From Phycisphaerae bacterium (GTDB taxonomy: Bacteria; Planctomycetota; Phycisphaerae; UBA1845; PWPN01): DNA of 64,000 nucleotides. This document shows positions 6,049-62,753 of this stretch, one piece after another. A program made the translations under genes and the position numbers. Under the pieces are notes generated by a model, which searched no databases, was not told the DNA's origin, and was given only the letters and a program-made list of their open reading frames with translations. Location: assembly GCA_035477895.1 (NCBI GenBank), contig DATIKE010000155.1, positions 5,045-69,044 on the forward strand. The letters are read 5' to 3'. Within the stretch, counting starts at the first letter, position 1; each line of letters starts with the position of its first letter.

Positions 6049-6537
6049 ATGTTGTCCGACAAGATGCTCAAGGCCCTGAACGACCAGATGGATTTCGAGT
6101 TCAGCTCCGCCTACCTGTACCTGGCGATGGCCGCCCACTGCGAAGCCCGGAACCTGCCGGGCTTTGCCCAATGGTTCAAGGCCCAATTCGGCGAGGAGCA
6201 GGCCCACGCGATGAAACTTTTCGGGTACGTTGCCGACCGCGGGGGCACGGTCGCGCTCGGGGCGATCGCCAAGCCGACGTCGGCTTTCGGCTCGCCGCTC
6301 GATACGTTCAAGGAAGTCCTCGCCCACGAGCAGAAAGTGACCGCGGCGATCAACAAGCTCTACGAAGTCGCTCTGGCCGAGAAGGACTACGCGACCCAGA
6401 CCTTCCTGCAGTGGTACATCAACGAGCAGGTCGAGGAGGAGAAGACCGCCGAGGACATTATCCGCCAGCTCGAGGCCATCGGCGGCAAGGCTCACCTCAT
6501 GCTGATGCTCGATCATCGCCTGGGTGAGCGAAAGTAA
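6049..6537 (+). CDS. ftn: Non-heme ferritin
   Basis: 162 aa. MLSDKMLKALNDQMDFEFSSAYLYLAMAAH...EEQAHAMKLFGYV is a typical ferritin di-iron helix bundle. RBS GAAGGGAGAAGG precedes the start. Confidence 0.9.
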   Translation: MLSDKMLKALNDQMDFEFSSAYLYLAMAAHCEARNLPGFAQWFKAQFGEEQAHAMKLFGYVADRGGTVALGAIAKPTSAFGSPLDTFKEVLAHEQKVTAAINKLYEVALAEKDYATQTFLQWYINEQVEEEKTAEDIIRQLEAIGGKAHLMLMLDHRLGERK

Positions 6538-6596
6538 AGTAGAGCCCCCCTTGTGAGGGCTGGACGGTCGGTACGATAGGCGGCACCAGCCGATCT

Positions 6597-6637
6597 AAAA
6601 AACCGCCGCTTGGCTGGACGACAGCCAAGCGGCGGTT
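6597..6637 (-). terminator. Intrinsic terminator oriented for a minus-strand transcript
   Basis: Perfect 15-bp inverted repeat aaccgccgcttggct / agccaagcggcggtt (6601-6615 / 6623-6637) with a 7-nt loop. The A-run at 6597-6602 reads as a U-tract only on the minus strand. There is no T-run after the hairpin on the plus strand. Confidence 0.65.
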
Positions 6638-7705
6638 CGGCGCATAAAAATGCGACGCGAGGTTCGACGCAAGCGTGTCCTTCGGAGTTTTCGGTTCCGC
6701 TCCTCGCCCGCCTGTGTCACCACCTGCGAGCGTCCTCTCATGGAATCGGCTGCTCGTTCAGAGTTCTCACCCGCCTGGGTACCGCCTTATTGGTTTGGCG
6801 AGCCCACTTTGCCGTTGGACCATTTACCTCGGCTATGTGGGTTTCCCGTGGCGGGCCTCGCTGGTCGCGGTTAAACGTCCAGCAATACCCTCTCTTCGAG
6901 TTTCGCGTTCCTCCAGAGTCTTACCTAGCGTCACCTAGCCGGCCGGCCACAGCCCGCCAGCTCCTCCCATGGACTTTTGCTCCCTACAGCACATCAGGAA
7001 CCGAAGGTCCACTTCACACGGGCTTTACCTGCCCGCTTCGTTCCGCCCTCAGGGTTTGGCTACCCTCTCGACGGTTTCCTCCCTTCGATCCCGTGCCGGC
7101 TTTTTTTCACGCCGGCAGCGCTCATGGGATTCACCCTTCGGAGCATTCCCCTCTCGAAAGGTCACCCGCACGTTTCCGCACGGCTGATACCCACCTACCG
7201 TTCCTCCTGCAGCTTAACCACCTACCGAGGCAGGAGGCCGGCCCTGCAGGCCGCGGTTTCTGGGTCTACCCTTCCGAGAGTTCCTGGCGACCGGACGTGG
7301 GTTTAGCACACCGACCGCTGGTTGCTCCCCTGGGGTTTTCCCTTCTAGGGCTCTCTCTCGACAGCCTCGACCGGGATTTCGCCCAGCCTCCTCCCACGCG
7401 CTTTATCGGTCTGTGGTTGCCCACCTACCGACCGGCGCCCCGGAGTCTCGATCGGCCGCCGCCTGCCCCTGGTCTCTTCCCCAAGTGCAAGCACTCAAGG
7501 ACGATCAGGGAGGCCCTTCTAGGGTTCCTGCACCGGAACACTCCCGAGCATTCGAGTCCGACCCGTCTCTGGCTATCTTTTTCACCTCTCGCCGCGTGGT
7601 CCATTACTGCCCACCGCCCGGCGATCTTCGAGACAGGTTCCGGACTCTACCGGAGTTGTCGGGACTGCCTGAGGTGCCTTGCGATTGCGACCTCAGCGTC
7701 GCAAC
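6597..7705 (-). ncRNA. Candidate large (~1.1 kb) structured non-coding RNA, class unrecognised; 5' boundary approximate
   Basis: No minus-strand ORF of 60 aa or more lies between 6517 and 7815. The plus strand is open in all three frames because it is pyrimidine-rich. The minus-sense sequence is purine-rich with recurring motifs: CGGTAGGTGG x3, CTAGAAGGG x2, and many (T)CGAAGGG / TCGAGAGGG. Local hairpins include gccggc-gtgaaaaaaa-gccggc and ttgcgac-gctgag-gtcgcaa. It ends at the minus-strand terminator. A weak promoter-like TTGCCT-N14-TGcTACATA (minus, 7738-7710) lies upstream. Confidence 0.35.
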
Positions 7706-8352
7706 ACTCTATGTAGCACAGGATTGGATAAGAGGCAAACGAGTTGGCGCGTTTTTCGGTATTTCACAGGGCCGATTGGGCGACTTGCGCGCAGCCGCGA
7801 TGGCCGAACCCGTTTCAGGCTAATAATCTAGAGGCATGAGCGCGTCCGTAAGATTTTTCGACAAACCGTATCAGTTTTTCCAAATTCACAAAGCCCGGTC
7901 CATTGTGAACTCGACAGGCATGATTCCAGTGCGAGAGAATGACCGTGCGGCATGGCAATCTGGGTAAGATGTGCCGGTTCTCTTGATGCTCGGGCGTCCG
8001 GGGAGGGGACTTAGACTTGAGCCGCCGGGCGTCTTTGCGCATGGCGAAAAACCGCCGGGCAGAACCAAGAGTATAGATGCTTCAGCCGACCGGGATGGCC
8101 TGCTCCAGGTCGATCAGGCGTTGAACGGTCCAATCAGGCTGCAAGTCGCCCTTGTGCGGGGTTGCATCTCAAGCCCGGCCGGAGAGCATAGTGCTCGAAG
8201 TGGGAATTCCGAACTCGCCTGGCGACGCGCAAGTCGCGCAGAGGCAAGCGGCGGGTAGAGCTTGCGCTGCAGGCCCGTGCCATCCGCCGACTTGGACATG
8301 AGAAGGACCAACAACAGCGCCGGCAGAGGCTGGGCGCGGAAAGGAGATTCGC

Positions 8353-11079
8353 TTGCGTACACACGACCGTCACCGATATCGGCTTACACGCATGCTCCTG
8401 GCGACTATGACCCTCGCGATGATTGCATCCACGGCTGGTGCTGAGACGCTGTATGTCTCACCCCAGGGCAAGGACGCATGGACGGGCCGACCGGAGCACC
8501 CGAGCGCGGACGGCACCGATGGTCCGCTGGCTTCGCTGCAGGGCGCGCGCGACGCGATTCGCCGGATCAAGACTCAGGGGCCGCTCCGCGAGCCGATCAC
8601 CGTCCAGGTCGCCGACGGCCGATACACGATCGCGGAGCCCGTGGTTTTCGAGCCGACCGACAGCGGCACGAAGGACAATCCGATCACATATGCCGCCGCG
8701 CCGGGAGCCCGGCCGGTGTTCTCGGGTGGAAAACCGATCACCGGTTTCAAACCAGGGCCGGACGGCGTGTGGACCGCGCAGGTTCCCGAGGTGAAGGAGG
8801 GCAAATGGTACTTCGAGCAGCTTTTCGTGAACGGCCGGCGGGCGACGCGTGCCCGGACGCCCAACGAGGGCTACCTGCACATGGTTCGGCCGGTGGCATC
8901 CGGCACGCTGCCCGGGGAGGATAAGCCGCGGAACCTCGAGCAACGGGCATTCATGGCCCGCAACGGTGACCTGGAGCCGTTGTCGAAGCTCACGGGCCAA
9001 ACCCGCGACGACGCGAACATCGTGGTGTATCACTCGTGGGAGATCAGCCGACATCGCATCGCCTCGCTGGACGCGAAGGCCGGCACCGTCGTGTTCACCG
9101 GCGACGCCCACTGGCCGCTGGGGAAGTGGGGCGCCTCGCAGCGATACCATCTTGAGAACTATAAAGAGGCACTGGACGCCCCGGGCGAGTGGTTCCTCGA
9201 CCGCGAGGGAACCCTGTACTATCGGCCGCTGCCGGACGAGGACATGACGCGGGCGGAGGTCGTCGCGCCGGCCGCGACGGACTTCGTGCGTCTGGCCGGC
9301 CGGCCGGAGGACAACGGGTTCGTCGAGCACCTGGCGTTCAAGGGCCTGTCGTTCCGGCACGGCCAGTACCTGCTGCCCGCGGAGGGCTACTCGGACCCCC
9401 AGGCGGCGTTCGGCATCGAGGCGGCGGTGATGGCCGACGGAGCCCGCCACGTCACTTTCGAGCGGTGCGAAATCGCGCATATCGGCACGTATGCGATGTG
9501 GTTCCGTCGGGGATGCACGGACTGCCGCGTGCAACAGTGTTATCTTCACGATCTGGGCGCGGGCGGCGTGCGGATCGGCGAGGGGGCGATCCGGCCGGAA
9601 GGCCCGGAACGCACCGGTAGGATCGTCGTGGACAACAACATCATTCAGACCGGCGGGCGGATCTTCATGGGCGCGGTCGGCGTCTGGATCGGCCAGAGCG
9701 GGGACAACCGGGTCACGCACAACGACATCGGCGATTTCTTCTACACCGGTGTGTCGGTGGGCTGGACCTGGGGCTACGGCGACAGCCTCGGCCGGAACAA
9801 CCACATCGACTTCAACCACATCCACCACCTGGGCTACTGCGTGCTCAGCGACATGGGGGCGGTGTACACCCTGGGCATCTCCGACGGCACGACGGTCAAC
9901 AACAACGTCGCCCACGACATCTCGTGCTACCAGTACGGCGGGTGGGGGCTGTACAACGACGAGGGCAGCACGCACATCCTCATGGAGAACAACCTCGTCT
10001 ACAACACCACTGATGGCAATTACCACCTTCACTATGGGAAAGAGAATACCGTCCGCAACAACATCCTGGCCTGCTCGCGCCAGGTCCAGGTTCGGGGCAG
10101 CCGGCCCGAGCAGCACCTCCGGTTCACCTTCGAGGGCAACATCGTCTACTTCAAGGAGGGCGACCTGTTGATGGGCCAGTTCGACGAGACGGTCACCATG
10201 GACCGCAACCTGTATTTCGACGCCTCGGGCCGACCGCTACGATTCCTGAACATGGACCTTGCCCAGTGGCAGGCCAAGGGCAAGGATACCCGTTCGATCG
10301 TGGCAGATCCGAAGTTCATGAATCCGGCCGGCTATGACTTCCGGCTTCAGCCGGACTCGCCGGCGAGCCGGATCGGCTTCGAGCCTTTCGATTACACCAG
10401 GGCAGGCGTGTACGGAGAGGCCGAGTGGATCGCGCTGGCCCGCCGGGCCCCGTTTAACTCACAACCGTTCCCGACCATCCCGCCGCCACAGCCGCCGACC
10501 GAGATCAACGACGACTTCGAGCAGACGGCAGCGGGTGGGGTACCGGCCCTGCTGCAGGTTTACGCGGAGAACCGCAAGGACGCGGTGGCGGTCACCGACG
10601 ATACCGCAGCCGCGGGCACCCACAGCCTGAAGGCGGCCGACTCGCCGGACTTCAAGACGCCCTACAATCCGCACTTCTTCTACCCGCTGAACCACAAGGA
10701 AGGTGTCACGACTTCGTCGTTCGACATACGGATCGAGCCGAACACGGTGATGTACCACCAGTGGCGAGACGGCGACAACCCCTACAAGGTCGGCCCCACG
10801 TTCGATATCCGCGGCGGCAGGCTGGTGGCCGGCGGCGAGTCCATCGATCTGCCGACCGGACAGTGGTGCCACGTCGAGATCTCCGTCGGCCTCGGGCCGA
10901 AGTCAACGGGCACCTGGGATCTGTCGATCACCTTGCCCGGCCAGCCGGCGCGGAAACTGGCCGGCCTGAAGAACCCAAACCCGGAGTTCAAGAGCCTCTC
11001 CTGGTTCGGTTTCAGTTCCACGGCCGTGGACAAGACGACCTTCTGGCTGGACAATCTGCGGATTGTGAACAGGCAATGA
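8353..11079 (+). CDS. Secreted right-handed parallel beta-helix repeat protein (pectate-lyase-fold), 908 aa
   Basis: Signal peptide [24 protein letters not shown]. The body has repeated beta-helix-type segments (NNIIQTGG..., [41 protein letters not shown]). TTG start is preceded by GGAAAGGAG. Confidence 0.75.
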
Positions 11080-62680: not shown

Positions 62681-62753
62681 TGGGTAGGGTGAGAGTTGAA
62701 CTCACGACACATGGATTTTCAGTCCATTGCTCTACCACCTGAGCTACCTACCC
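62681..62753 (-). tRNA. tRNA-Phe: tRNA-Phe (anticodon GAA), CCA not encoded
   Basis: The reverse complement GGGTAGGTAGCTCAGGTGGTAGAGCAATGGACTGAAAATCCATGTGTCGTGAGTTCAACTCTCACCCTACCCA folds as a cloverleaf. It has a 7-bp acceptor stem, a GCTC/GAGC D-stem, an ATGGA/TCCAT anticodon stem with loop CTGAAAA, and a GTGAG-TTCAACT-CTCAC T-arm. Confidence 0.93.

What the first reader, a model, noticed from the sequence alone, without database searches (positions are those of the whole stretch)
6597..7745. About 1.1 kb CDS-free, strand-asymmetric segment ending in a minus-strand terminator: candidate large structured ncRNA
No credible protein gene lies between the ferritin gene and the beta-helix gene. 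The minus strand has no ORF of 60 aa or more from 6517 to 7815. The plus strand is open in all three frames (track ORFs 6610-7716, 6650-6874, 6675-6938, 6969-7187, 6977-7306, 7413-7823), which is what a pyrimidine-rich strand with few stop codons produces. The 368-aa plus ORF has the P/S/R/L-rich junk composition typical of translations antisense to purine-rich stable RNAs. In minus sense the sequence carries recurring short motifs: CGGTAGGTGG three times, CTAGAAGGG twice, and a family of (T)CGAAGGG / TCGAGAGGG / CGGAAGGG. It also has GNRA-like loops and clean local hairpins. It terminates at a textbook hairpin plus U-tract that works only for the minus strand (6597-6637), convergent with ftn. 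I could not match it from memory to rRNA, RNase P, tmRNA, SRP, 6S or group II intron signatures. At ~1.1 kb it would be longer than large bacterial ncRNAs such as OLE, GOLLD and ROOL (roughly 0.6-0.8 kb as I recall them), but I cannot assign it to any of them.
Basis: partly seen in the sequence, partly recalled or inferred. Interest (0 to 1): 0.75.

Follow-up and report, generated by a model that had tools for sequence, protein, structure and literature searches.

The report
New kilobase-sized structured RNA of Phycisphaerae
The gene-free stretch encodes a 1,051-nucleotide, intricately folded non-coding RNA that is conserved in many uncultured Phycisphaerae (Planctomycetota), turns up as a discrete transcript-sized contig in many environmental assemblies, and matches no RNA family in Rfam 15, so it looks like a new and unusually large bacterial RNA of unknown function.

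Summary
Window 7702..6652 (minus strand, 1,051 nt) is a stand-alone gene for a large structured RNA.

- **Known families:** no Rfam 15 family matches, even weakly.
- **Homologues:** about 75 Phycisphaerae/Planctomycetota genome bins and at least 76 short environmental contigs carry one. Most of those contigs start and stop at the RNA's own ends, so they look like whole transcripts.
- **Structure:** the consensus fold has 314 base pairs. 90.8% of cells are paired, against 35-43% in slid controls. 262 pairs show compensatory changes. On 73 sequences not used to derive the fold, 90.4% are paired.
- **Architecture:** the 5' and 3' ends pair (P1), and five domains radiate from a central junction. 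A 4-bp / 3x3 purine loop / 5-bp module recurs about ten times, with A.A<->G.G covariation. One hairpin is nearly invariant.
- **Gene signals:** the promoter is conserved. P1 followed by a U tract ends the gene in 72 of 72 genomic copies.
- **Not a protein gene:** indels ignore the reading frame and there is no codon periodicity.
- **Relatives:** a related 1.3-1.75 kb family also exists.

Function is unknown. My best guess is the RNA core of a ribonucleoprotein or RNA assembly. A PIN-PhoH gene sits just upstream in about 45% of genomic copies.

The parts
6652..7702 (-). Mature RNA, 1,051 nt (5' GCGACGCUGAGG ... CCUCGCGUCGC 3')
   Evidence: The 5' end is placed by the conserved promoter geometry. 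It is also placed by head-to-tail junctions ..CGUCGC|GCGACG.. in contigs L125 and L203. 64 of 76 short environmental contigs begin at HMM positions 32-41 (window 7698-7689). Their 3' ends pile up at HMM 1079-1081 (window 6653-6651).
7691..7702 (-). P1, 5' strand of the closing helix (pairs with 6652-6662)
   Evidence: 11 bp, 10 of them with changes on both sides across 66 sequences (helix 1; window coordinates).
6652..6662 (-). P1, 3' strand, ending at the mature 3' end
7530..7677 (-). Domain I (includes a GUAA-tetraloop hairpin and the conserved GGUGAA..AUAGCC hairpin)
   Evidence: Helices 3-12; coordinates; conservation.
7340..7524 (-). Domain II (base module CCCU-AGA-AGGGC / GCCCU-AGA-AGGG; variable-length hairpin; GAAA-loop hairpin)
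   Evidence: Helices 13-23. A.A<->G.G covariation at 7518/7346 and 7520/7344.
7133..7335 (-). Domain III, the core that is also shared with the larger family 2
   Evidence: Helices 24-35. Family-2 contigs align to HMM positions 366-618.
6981..7129 (-). Domain IV, carrying the nearly invariant hairpin
   Evidence: Helices 36-43.
7043..7074 (-). Nearly invariant element CCGUC-GAG-AGGGU-AGCCAA-ACCCU-GAG-GGCGG (loop 7056-7061)
   Evidence: It is invariant in the genome set, but that set was selected with this motif. It is 97-100% conserved, apart from two loop positions, in 73 contigs selected with a different motif. The central A.A<->G.G covariation is at 7069/7048.
6677..6974 (-). Domain V (largest; three nested 3x3-loop modules)
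   Evidence: Helices 44-61. A.A<->G.G covariation at 6914/6739 and 6834/6810.
7710..7738 (-). Promoter: -35 TTGCCT (7738-7733), 17-nt spacer with TG (7718-7717), -10 TACATA (7715-7710), start at G7702
   Evidence: Of 68 genomic homologues, 60 have TAnnnT at this place and 54 have TTG 16-18 nt upstream. This is a consensus match and the start site has not been mapped.
7761..7770 (-). Conserved upstream element CCTGTGAAAT (about -62); a possible regulator site
   Evidence: TGTSA lies between -75 and -41 in 55 of 68 homologues. 14 carry the palindrome TGACA-N3-4-TGTCA. The regulator role is an inference.
6640..6650 (-). U tract (6650-6646) directly after P1, then AUGCGC
   Evidence: 72 of 72 genomic homologues have at least 5 U in the 9 nt after P1. 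51 of 72 then have GCGC.
6597..6637 (-). Additional downstream intrinsic terminator (16-bp hairpin plus U6), convergent with ftn
   Evidence: A separate hairpin like this is seen in only a few homologues.

Best explanation
Window 7702..6652 (minus strand) is a stand-alone gene for a 1,051-nt, highly structured, trans-acting non-coding RNA. It belongs to a family not in Rfam 15 or the searchable literature and is found in uncultured Phycisphaerae/Planctomycetota.

**Shown by the data:**
- It has a sigma-70-type promoter (-35 TTGCCT, 17 nt, TG-n-TACATA) with a conserved upstream element.
- The transcript folds so that its first 11-12 nt pair with its last 11-12 nt (P1).
- Inside a second short helix, five domains radiate from a central junction. 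In total there are about 314 base pairs in about 60 helices.
- A module recurs about ten times: a 4-bp helix, a symmetric 3x3 purine-rich internal loop with covarying A.A/G.G pairs, and a 4-5-bp helix.
- There are several GNRA loops and one nearly invariant hairpin (AGGGU-ARCCAA-ACCCU).
- A U tract follows P1 directly in every genomic copy.
- Contigs of 1.0-1.1 kb that begin and end at the RNA's own ends are common in environmental assemblies.

**Inferred:**
- Formation of P1, once its 3' strand is made, acts together with the U tract as the intrinsic terminator. In this genome the 6601-6637 hairpin is a back-up.
- The RNA is stable and abundant.
- Function: it is the RNA core of a ribonucleoprotein or higher-order RNA particle, in the manner of OLE, ROOL or GOLLD RNAs, and not a cis-regulator or an mRNA (about 0.45).
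- The PIN-PhoH (RNA helicase/nuclease-type) gene found just upstream in many genomes is a possible partner (about 0.2-0.25).
- A ribozyme is the main alternative (about 0.15).
For: **No known family.** Rfam 15 gives nothing at gathering score or at E<=10.

**Homologues.**
- Translating the spurious 368-aa ORF found 65 'hypothetical protein' clusters.
- A conserved 19-mer found 82 loci in species-representative genomes, nearly all labelled Phycisphaerae or Planctomycetota. About 65 carry full-length copies and 5 are chance matches.
76 of them are family members shorter than 2.5 kb.

**Structure.**
- RNAalifold gives 314 pairs.
- 90.8% of cells are paired, against 35-43% for slid partners.
- 262 pairs and 2,700 cells have changes on both sides, against 162-182 pairs and 567-711 cells in slid controls. 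0 of 500 shuffles reach the observed values.
- On 73 contigs less than 95% identical to any training sequence, 90.4% are paired against 34-43%, and 249 pairs have double changes.
- 137 of the top 260 mutual-information pairs are predicted pairs. The strongest remaining pairs are A.A<->G.G exchanges inside the 3x3 loops.

**Ends and expression.**
- 64 of 76 short contigs start within a 10-nt window, and 3' ends peak at the last base of P1.
- One contig is chimeric with a eukaryotic 5.8S rRNA, so at least that assembly derives from RNA.
- Head-to-tail junctions join ..CGUCGC to GCGACG...

**Gene signals.** The promoter and U tract are conserved.

**Not coding.** Pfam gives nothing. Indel runs are 90 with length divisible by 3 against 1,344 not. 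Mismatch rates by codon position are 0.325, 0.342 and 0.313.

**Trans-acting.** Neighbouring genes differ between species. Neither motif finds a family member in viral contigs.

**PIN-PhoH.** The gene sits upstream and co-oriented in 25 loci spread over the whole RNA tree.
Against: - No experiment or RNA-seq exists for this organism.
- I could not confirm that the JGI samples are metatranscriptomes. I infer it from contig lengths and ends and from one rRNA chimera.
- The transcription start is predicted, not mapped. The short contigs begin 8-10 nt downstream of it.
- A closing helix spanning 1 kb is an unusual terminator, and the window also has an ordinary terminator 15 nt further on.
- Alignments are from MAFFT, not structure-guided, and the fold is a thermodynamic/covariation consensus. 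Individual helices are shaky (for example helices 4, 21, 53 and 60, which are 70-75% paired).
- Both collections were fished with exact motifs, so conservation of those motifs is partly ascertainment.
- Nothing here shows what the RNA does.
- The PIN-PhoH gene is absent from the window's 64 kb and from more than half of the loci with enough upstream DNA.
Confidence: 0.85

Rival explanations
1. A ribozyme. The size, the multi-domain fold around a central junction, the GNRA loops and a nearly invariant hairpin would form an active site, as in RNase P RNA or group II introns.
For: Five domains radiate from a junction closed by P1 and P2. Strictly conserved nucleotides sit in loops and junctions. 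Non-canonical covariation points to precise 3D packing.
Against: No covariance model of a known ribozyme matches, even weakly. There is no obvious substrate, flanking exon, or associated reverse transcriptase or maturase. Nothing in the sequence data identifies a reaction.
Confidence: 0.15
2. A decayed or unrecognised protein gene on the plus strand (the 368-aa ORF), or a conserved small protein on the minus strand.
For: The 368-aa ORF has 65 database 'homologues' annotated as hypothetical proteins.
Against: - Those hits cover varying parts of the query and have no Pfam domains.
- The longest antisense open frame ranges from 108 to 371 aa between species, and the sense strand has a median of 127 aa.
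- Indels are overwhelmingly not multiples of three, and substitutions show no codon periodicity.
- Base-pair covariation explains the conservation.
Confidence: 0.01
3. A cis-acting element: a long leader, 3' UTR or antisense regulator of a neighbouring gene such as ftn in this window.
For: It is convergent with ferritin here. In L002 it lies upstream of feoAB, which is also an iron-related gene.
Against: Neighbours differ from species to species. Downstream genes include a mannitol dehydrogenase, peptidase M29 and others. The RNA has its own promoter and a U tract at its end in 72 of 72 copies. The environmental contigs end at the RNA's ends, not in neighbouring genes.
Confidence: 0.03
4. A mobile or selfish RNA/DNA element: a phage-borne ornate RNA like GOLLD or ROOL, an intron, or a circular RNA replicon.
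For: The genomic context varies. Two contigs carry head-to-tail junctions as a circular molecule would (L125, L203).
Against: - There is one copy in the window and, as a rule, one per locus.
- No family member is found in 2.9 million viral contigs. The 2 motif matches there are not family members.
- No transposase, reverse transcriptase or integrase is conserved nearby.
- It sits in genomic DNA behind a conserved promoter.
- 64 of 76 contigs start at the same place, which a circular molecule would not give.
Confidence: 0.04

Closest known systems
OLE (ornate, large, extremophilic) RNA of Bacillota
   Same: Both are large, ornate, lineage-restricted bacterial ncRNAs with many conserved nucleotides. 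OLE is highly expressed, its biochemical function is still unknown, and it works as a ribonucleoprotein (PMC12054373, PMC9723947).
   Different: OLE is about 600 nt and this RNA is 1,051 nt. There is no sequence or structure match. The phylum differs. OLE has known protein partners (OapA, OapB, OapC). Here the only recurrent neighbour is a PIN-PhoH gene.
GOLLD and ROOL RNAs
   Same: They are giant ornate bacterial RNAs found by comparative genomics. They are now known to form RNA-only homo-oligomeric assemblies (PMC12286853), which is a model for what a kilobase-sized ornate RNA may do.
   Different: No covariance-model match. From my own knowledge, GOLLD and ROOL are often in prophages or near tRNA genes. 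This RNA is chromosomal, single-copy, has its own conserved promoter, and is absent from the viral contig collection. It is also longer than either, and its relatives reach 1.75 kb.
RNase P RNA and group II introns (large multi-domain ribozymes)
   Same: Both have domains radiating from a central junction, GNRA tetraloops and strictly conserved short elements. In RNase P RNA a P1 helix pairs the two ends (established knowledge).
   Different: There is no match to their covariance models even at E<=10. The 5' end is GCGACG, not GUGYG. There is no domain-V-like hairpin, no intron-encoded protein and no flanking exons.
Ribosomal RNA (as a structural analogy only)
   Same: It is purine-rich, about 1 kb, and has recurrent internal-loop modules with A.A<->G.G homopurine covariation. 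From my own knowledge, that kind of exchange is classically seen in rRNA comparative models.
   Different: It is not homologous to rRNA, since no SSU, LSU or 5S model matches. It is restricted to one bacterial lineage.

Membership tests
Any family of Rfam release 15 (4,227 models) | Covariance-model match at the family's gathering score | tested here: not met
   The whole window gives only a tRNA at 62681-62753. 20 homologous contigs give 0 matches.
Any family of Rfam release 15 (4,227 models) | Even a weak match (E<=10 or E<=5, permissive filters) | tested here: not met
   The only matches are hairpin-level chance hits to miRNA or sRNA models on the 6601-6637 terminator. There is one 12.6-bit CsrC hit on a family-2 contig.
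OLE RNA | Model match; genomic linkage to OLE-associated protein genes | tested here: not met
   No model match. Clustering of neighbouring genes finds only PIN-PhoH (25 loci) and peptidase M29 (5 loci) as recurrent neighbours. I did not search for Oap proteins by name.
GOLLD / ROOL RNAs | Model match; frequent phage or prophage context | tested here: not met
   No model match. Two motif scans of the viral contig collection found no family member.
GOLLD / ROOL / OLE-like behaviour (homo-oligomeric RNA assembly) | Forms defined multimers | not testable with these tools
   This needs SEC-MALS, native gels or cryo-EM of the transcript.
Group II intron | Domain V/VI model match, 5' GUGYG, intron-encoded protein or flanking exons | tested here: not met
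   No model match. The 5' end is GCGACG. No reverse-transcriptase ORF is present.
Bacterial RNase P RNA, tmRNA, SRP RNA, 6S RNA | Model match (Rfam) or ARAGORN tmRNA call | tested here: not met
Structured non-coding RNA gene (generic) | Conserved across species with compensatory base-pair changes beyond controls | tested here: met
   90.8% paired against 35-43% slid, 262 of 314 pairs with double changes, 0 of 500 shuffles; independent set 90.4% paired against 34-43%.
Structured non-coding RNA gene (generic) | Own promoter and terminator; discrete transcript | tested here: inconclusive
   Promoter-like hexamers and a U tract after P1 are conserved. Contig ends coincide with the RNA's ends. There is no direct transcript mapping in this organism, and sample types were not verified.
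Protein-coding gene | Conserved reading frame, indels in multiples of three, third-position excess of substitutions, domain match | tested here: not met
   The hits have no Pfam domains.
Cis-regulatory leader / riboswitch | Constant position upstream of a functionally coherent set of genes | tested here: not met
   Downstream genes vary: ftn is convergent here, and elsewhere there are feoAB, mannitol dehydrogenase, peptidase M29 and others.
Rho-independent terminator | GC-rich hairpin followed directly by a U run on the transcribed strand | tested here: met
   The 6637-6601 hairpin plus U6 is found by the scan. P1 plus a U tract is conserved in 72 of 72 copies. Whether P1 itself terminates transcription is an inference.
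Insertion sequence / repeat element | Several copies, terminal repeats, transposase | tested here: not met
   Single copy in 64 kb. No conserved transposase nearby.

The most novel reading that the evidence does not exclude
This would be the founding member of a superfamily of kilobase-sized ornate bacterial RNAs: 1.05 kb in Phycisphaerae, with 1.3-1.75 kb relatives in soil and sediment organisms. These would be the largest structured non-ribosomal RNAs known in bacteria. They would build an abundant RNA machine, either a new ribozyme or a self-assembling RNA/RNP particle, possibly serviced by a PIN-PhoH helicase-nuclease.
Probability: 0.3. Interest if true: 0.95.

Novelty: categorically new. 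Interest (0 to 1): 0.88.

Why it matters
Only a handful of large structured RNAs of unknown function are known in bacteria (OLE, GOLLD, ROOL, raiA and a few others). Each has led to new biology or new RNA architecture, and cryo-EM recently showed RNA-only cages for GOLLD and ROOL.

This one is larger than any of them. More than 250 of its base pairs show compensatory changes. It has over 130 distinct sequences, apparently high expression in nature, and a bigger sister family. It would therefore be an excellent target for structure determination and for finding a new RNA function in a poorly studied phylum.

It also matters for annotation. Gene callers place 'hypothetical proteins' on its antisense strand in at least 65 protein clusters.

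It further offers a natural case of a 1-kb-range closing helix that seems to double as a transcription terminator.

Tried and rejected
- **Rfam at both thresholds** on the window, on homologues and on family-2 contigs: nothing.
- **ARAGORN:** no tRNA or tmRNA.
- **Pfam on the three longest plus-strand ORFs:** nothing.
- **Second copy or repeat in the window:** none.
- **Phage association:** two viral-contig scans gave only two chance motif matches.
- **Circular RNA:** two head-to-tail contigs exist, but the uniform contig starts argue for a mainly linear RNA. Other odd contig ends are assembly duplications or chimeras.
- **Iron link** (ftn here, feoAB in L002): not seen in other loci.
- **Multi-base-pair pseudoknot from mutual information:** only isolated extra pairs and non-canonical pairs emerged.
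- **Resemblances recalled from memory:** I compared short motifs with RNase P (AAGGGUGAA..GAGCGC, AAAGUCC) and the sarcin-ricin loop (GAGAGGAC). I treated these as composition-level coincidences because the covariance models give no hit.
- **Literature:** six searches, including exact sequence strings, found no description.
- **Other skewed regions:** I checked the window's two other most strand-skewed regions (about 24.2 kb and 45.9 kb). Long ORFs cover them, so I did not pursue them.
Full report
**What is in the window**

Between the ferritin gene (6049-6537, plus strand) and the next long plus-strand ORF (8353-11079) there is no credible protein gene. The minus strand has no ORF of 60 aa or more. 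The plus strand is open in several frames, including a 368-aa ORF at 6610-7716.

The minus strand of 6597-7745 is 58.7% purine. It contains the most strand-skewed 400-nt windows of the 64 kb. The hairpin 6637-6601 followed by six U is a terminator for the minus strand only.

**Not a known RNA**

Rfam 15 (4,227 models) gives nothing in this region at gathering score. At E<=10 with permissive filters, only trivial hairpin matches to the terminator appear. ARAGORN finds no tRNA or tmRNA. The same is true for homologues and for the larger related family.

**Finding relatives**

The pyrimidine-rich antisense strand is stop-poor, so gene callers put ORFs on it. I therefore searched the 368-aa translation against the protein collection. 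It returned 65 clusters of 'hypothetical proteins' without Pfam domains, mostly on contigs of about 1 kb.

DNA fetched for some of them aligned with the window over about 1,060 nt. The indels ignore the reading frame.

- A 19-mer from the best-conserved block (AGAGGGTANCCAAACCCTG) found 82 loci among species-representative genomes. Nearly all are bins labelled Phycisphaerae, Phycisphaerales or Planctomycetota.
- About 65 of these are full-length copies of 1,050-1,230 nt, a few are divergent or partial, and 5 are chance matches.
- The closest relative is a Phycisphaerae bin (L004/L039), so the window very probably comes from a Phycisphaerae bacterium.

**Structure**

On a 66-sequence alignment (A1), RNAalifold predicts 314 base pairs in about 60 helices. 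Counting those pairs gives the following.

| Measure | Predicted structure | Partners slid by 1-3 columns |
|---|---|---|
| Cells forming standard pairs | 90.8% | 35-43% |
| Pairs with a change on both sides | 262 of 314 | 162-182 |
| Cells with a change on both sides | 2,700 | 567-711 |

None of 500 column shuffles reaches any observed measure.

The structure was derived from that same alignment, so I tested it on 73 environmental contigs that are less than 95% identical to any training sequence. There, 90.4% of cells are paired against 34-43% in slid controls, and 249 pairs have double changes.

In a mutual-information scan of all 139 sequences, 137 of the top 260 pairs are predicted base pairs.

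The conservation is not that of a protein.
- Indel runs relative to the window number 90 with a length divisible by three, against 1,344 not.
- Mismatch rates at the three codon positions of the 368-aa frame are 0.325, 0.342 and 0.313.
- Pfam finds nothing.

**Anatomy in window coordinates, minus strand**

- **P1** pairs 7702-7691 with 6662-6652.
- **P2** pairs 7682-7678 with 6673-6669.
- Inside P2, five domains follow each other with linkers of only 4-6 nt in the window:

| Domain | Window coordinates |
|---|---|
| I | 7677-7530 |
| II | 7524-7340 |
| III | 7335-7133 |
| IV | 7129-6981 |
| V | 6974-6677 |

- Domains II to V each start with the same module: a 4-bp CCC(N)/(N)GGG helix, a symmetric 3x3 purine-rich internal loop, and a 5-bp helix. 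The module recurs deeper inside the domains, about ten times in all.
- The strongest covariations outside Watson-Crick pairs are A.A<->G.G exchanges between opposite positions of these loops. Examples are 7069/7048, 7518/7346, 6834/6810 and 6914/6739. This argues that the loops are ordered non-canonical structures.
- There are several GNRA tetraloops (GUAA and several GAAA).
- The element CCGUC-GAG-AGGGU-ARCCAA-ACCCU-GAG-GGCGG (7074-7043) is 97-100% conserved, apart from two loop positions, even in the set selected with a different motif.

**Ends, promoter, terminator, expression**

*Promoter.* Upstream of P1, 68 genomic homologues share a sigma-70-like promoter. 60 have TAnnnT. 54 have TTG 16-18 nt further up. 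The consensus is TTGaC/TTGCC - 17 nt - TGnGnTAtatT - 6-7 nt - GCGACG.

In the window this is TTGCCT (7738-7733), TG (7718-7717) and TACATA (7715-7710), with the predicted start at G7702.

Further upstream, TGTSA occurs in 55 of 68 homologues and the palindrome TGACA-N3-4-TGTCA in 14 of 68, around -62. The window has CCTGTGAAAT at 7770-7761. I read this as a regulator site, which is an inference.

*3' end.* The P1 3' strand (..CGUCGC) is followed at once by at least 5 U within 9 nt in 72 of 72 genomic copies. In 51 of 72, GCGC then follows. Only a few copies, including the window, have a separate hairpin terminator further down.

I infer that P1 formation plus the U tract is the family's terminator, and that 6601-6637 is a back-up in this genome.

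*Expression.* Of the 76 family members on short contigs in the metagenome collection:
- 64 begin at HMM positions 32-41 (window 7698-7689).
- The 3' ends pile up at HMM 1079-1081 (window 6653-6651, the last base of P1).
- Contig lengths cluster at 1,005-1,090 nt.

DNA assemblies would not break at the ends of a gene in dozens of samples. One contig is fused to a eukaryotic 5.8S rRNA. These are therefore almost certainly assembled transcripts, and they point to a discrete and abundant RNA.

Two contigs carry head-to-tail junctions ..CGUCGC|GCGACG.. (L125, L203). Whether these come from a minor circular form or from reverse-transcriptase template switching, they mark the termini. In the window those are G7702 and C6652, which gives 1,051 nt.

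The uniform contig starts argue that the RNA is mainly linear. From my own knowledge, the 8-10 nt missing at the 5' ends of the contigs is what random-primed libraries typically lose.

**Context**

The genes next to the RNA differ between species. Downstream genes include ftn (convergent, here), feoAB, a mannitol dehydrogenase and peptidase M29. The RNA is therefore not a leader or UTR of a particular gene.

The one recurrent neighbour is a PIN-domain plus PhoH-domain gene (PF13638 + PF02562 in L002).
- It lies directly upstream and co-oriented, 209-554 nt from the RNA's 5' end, in 25 loci.
- That is roughly 45% of the loci with enough upstream DNA.
- The RNAs in those loci are spread over the whole RNA tree. 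Their maximum distance is 0.47, against 0.50 for the whole family.

This could be ancient synteny or a functional link. The window's 64 kb has no such gene. No family member is found in the viral contig collection.

**A larger sister family**

Forty of the 120 metagenome-collection loci are not family 1. Thirty-one of them form one cluster, and several of the rest also align to its model, so this second family spans 1.3-1.75 kb.
- They again lie on contigs that begin and end at the RNA's ends (5' AAUCGGCUGAGCACCUCGCCGUGAA...).
- The 5' and 3' terminal sequences look complementary, as a family-1-like closing helix would require, although the consensus fold did not pair them.
- They align to family 1 only across domain III.
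- They have no Rfam match.
- A 20-sequence alignment gives 89% paired against 34-39% slid, and 153 pairs with double changes against 75-81.

**What it does**

Nothing here shows the function. What is shown: it is a stand-alone, conserved, intricately folded and apparently abundant RNA with conserved gene signals.

Its size, the tightly packed five-domain junction, the repeated structured loops, the GNRA loops and one invariant hairpin resemble the large RNAs that act as particles (OLE, ROOL, GOLLD, RNase P). They do not resemble base-pairing regulators.

| Reading | Probability |
|---|---|
| RNA core of a ribonucleoprotein or higher-order RNA assembly | about 0.45 |
| PIN-PhoH helicase/nuclease as a partner (a sub-case of the reading above) | about 0.2-0.25 |
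| Ribozyme | about 0.15 |
| Cis-regulator | 0.03 |
| Mobile or phage element | 0.04 |
| Protein gene | 0.01 |

**Novelty**

The RNA is not in Rfam 15. Six full-text searches, including exact sequence strings, found no description. I cannot exclude a description outside the searchable library.

At 1,051 nt it exceeds OLE (about 600 nt, PMC12054373). From my own knowledge it also exceeds ROOL (about 580 nt) and GOLLD (about 800 nt). I rate it as a new class, not a member or variant of a known one.

Noticed in passing
Loci L097, L098, L132, L133, L146, L153, L154, L158, L170, L172, L187, L190, L194, L196, L208 and others (whole contigs): A second, larger RNA family (1.3-1.75 kb) in environmental contigs. 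It shares domain III with the window's RNA, and its terminal sequences look complementary, as a closing helix would require. It has no Rfam match. In a 20-sequence alignment 89% of cells are paired against 34-39% slid. The host organism is unknown.
   Followed up: partly
L017:2726-4066 (-), L010:4588-5886 (-), L072:2119-3420 (+) and 22 further loci; not present in the window: A PIN + PhoH domain gene lies immediately upstream of the RNA gene and co-oriented with it, 209-554 nt away, in 25 genomes. These genomes are spread over the whole RNA tree. It may be the RNA's protein partner or old synteny.
   Followed up: partly
L125:130-230 and L203:1000-1116: Head-to-tail junctions (3' ..CGUCGC joined to 5' GCGACG..) with terminal direct repeats of 123 and 58 nt. 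A circular RNA or reverse-transcriptase template switching would both give this.
   Followed up: partly
window 6640-6650 (minus strand) and the same place in 51 of 72 homologues: GCGC (consensus U6-8-(A)UGCGC) is conserved just after the U tract, beyond the apparent mature 3' end. I have no explanation for it.
   Followed up: no
window 7761-7790 (minus strand): Conserved blocks lie upstream of the promoter. CCTGTGAAAT sits at about -62; TGTSA is present in 55 of 68 homologues, and some carry the palindrome TGACA-N3-4-TGTCA. GCGCAAGTCG sits at about -85 and is shared with several homologues. A transcription-factor site is likely.
   Followed up: partly
window 6610-7716 (+) and 65 protein clusters P0001-P0065: Public gene calls annotate 'hypothetical proteins' on the strand antisense to this RNA. 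These look like spurious ORFs that could be removed from protein databases.
   Followed up: yes
L207 (last 144 nt of the RNA-sense contig): An environmental contig of this RNA is fused to a eukaryotic 5.8S rRNA fragment. This is an assembly chimera, and it shows that the sample is RNA-derived.
   Followed up: no
L012:3933-4083 (-) and L048:4282-5188 (-): L012 has a second, partial copy of the 3' part of the RNA (HMM 917-1065) about 2 kb from the full copy. The L048 copy lacks HMM positions 204-362, which is part of domain II.
   Followed up: no
L042, L045, L050 (and L029, L030, L054): These are divergent or core-only matches. One bin is labelled Pseudomonadota. One unclassified bin has two copies (L045 and L050). 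The family may extend beyond Phycisphaerae, or the bins may be contaminated.
   Followed up: partly
window 7745-8353: About 600 nt upstream of the RNA promoter and before the divergent 908-aa gene have no long ORF. Apart from the conserved promoter-proximal blocks, I did not examine this stretch further.
   Followed up: no
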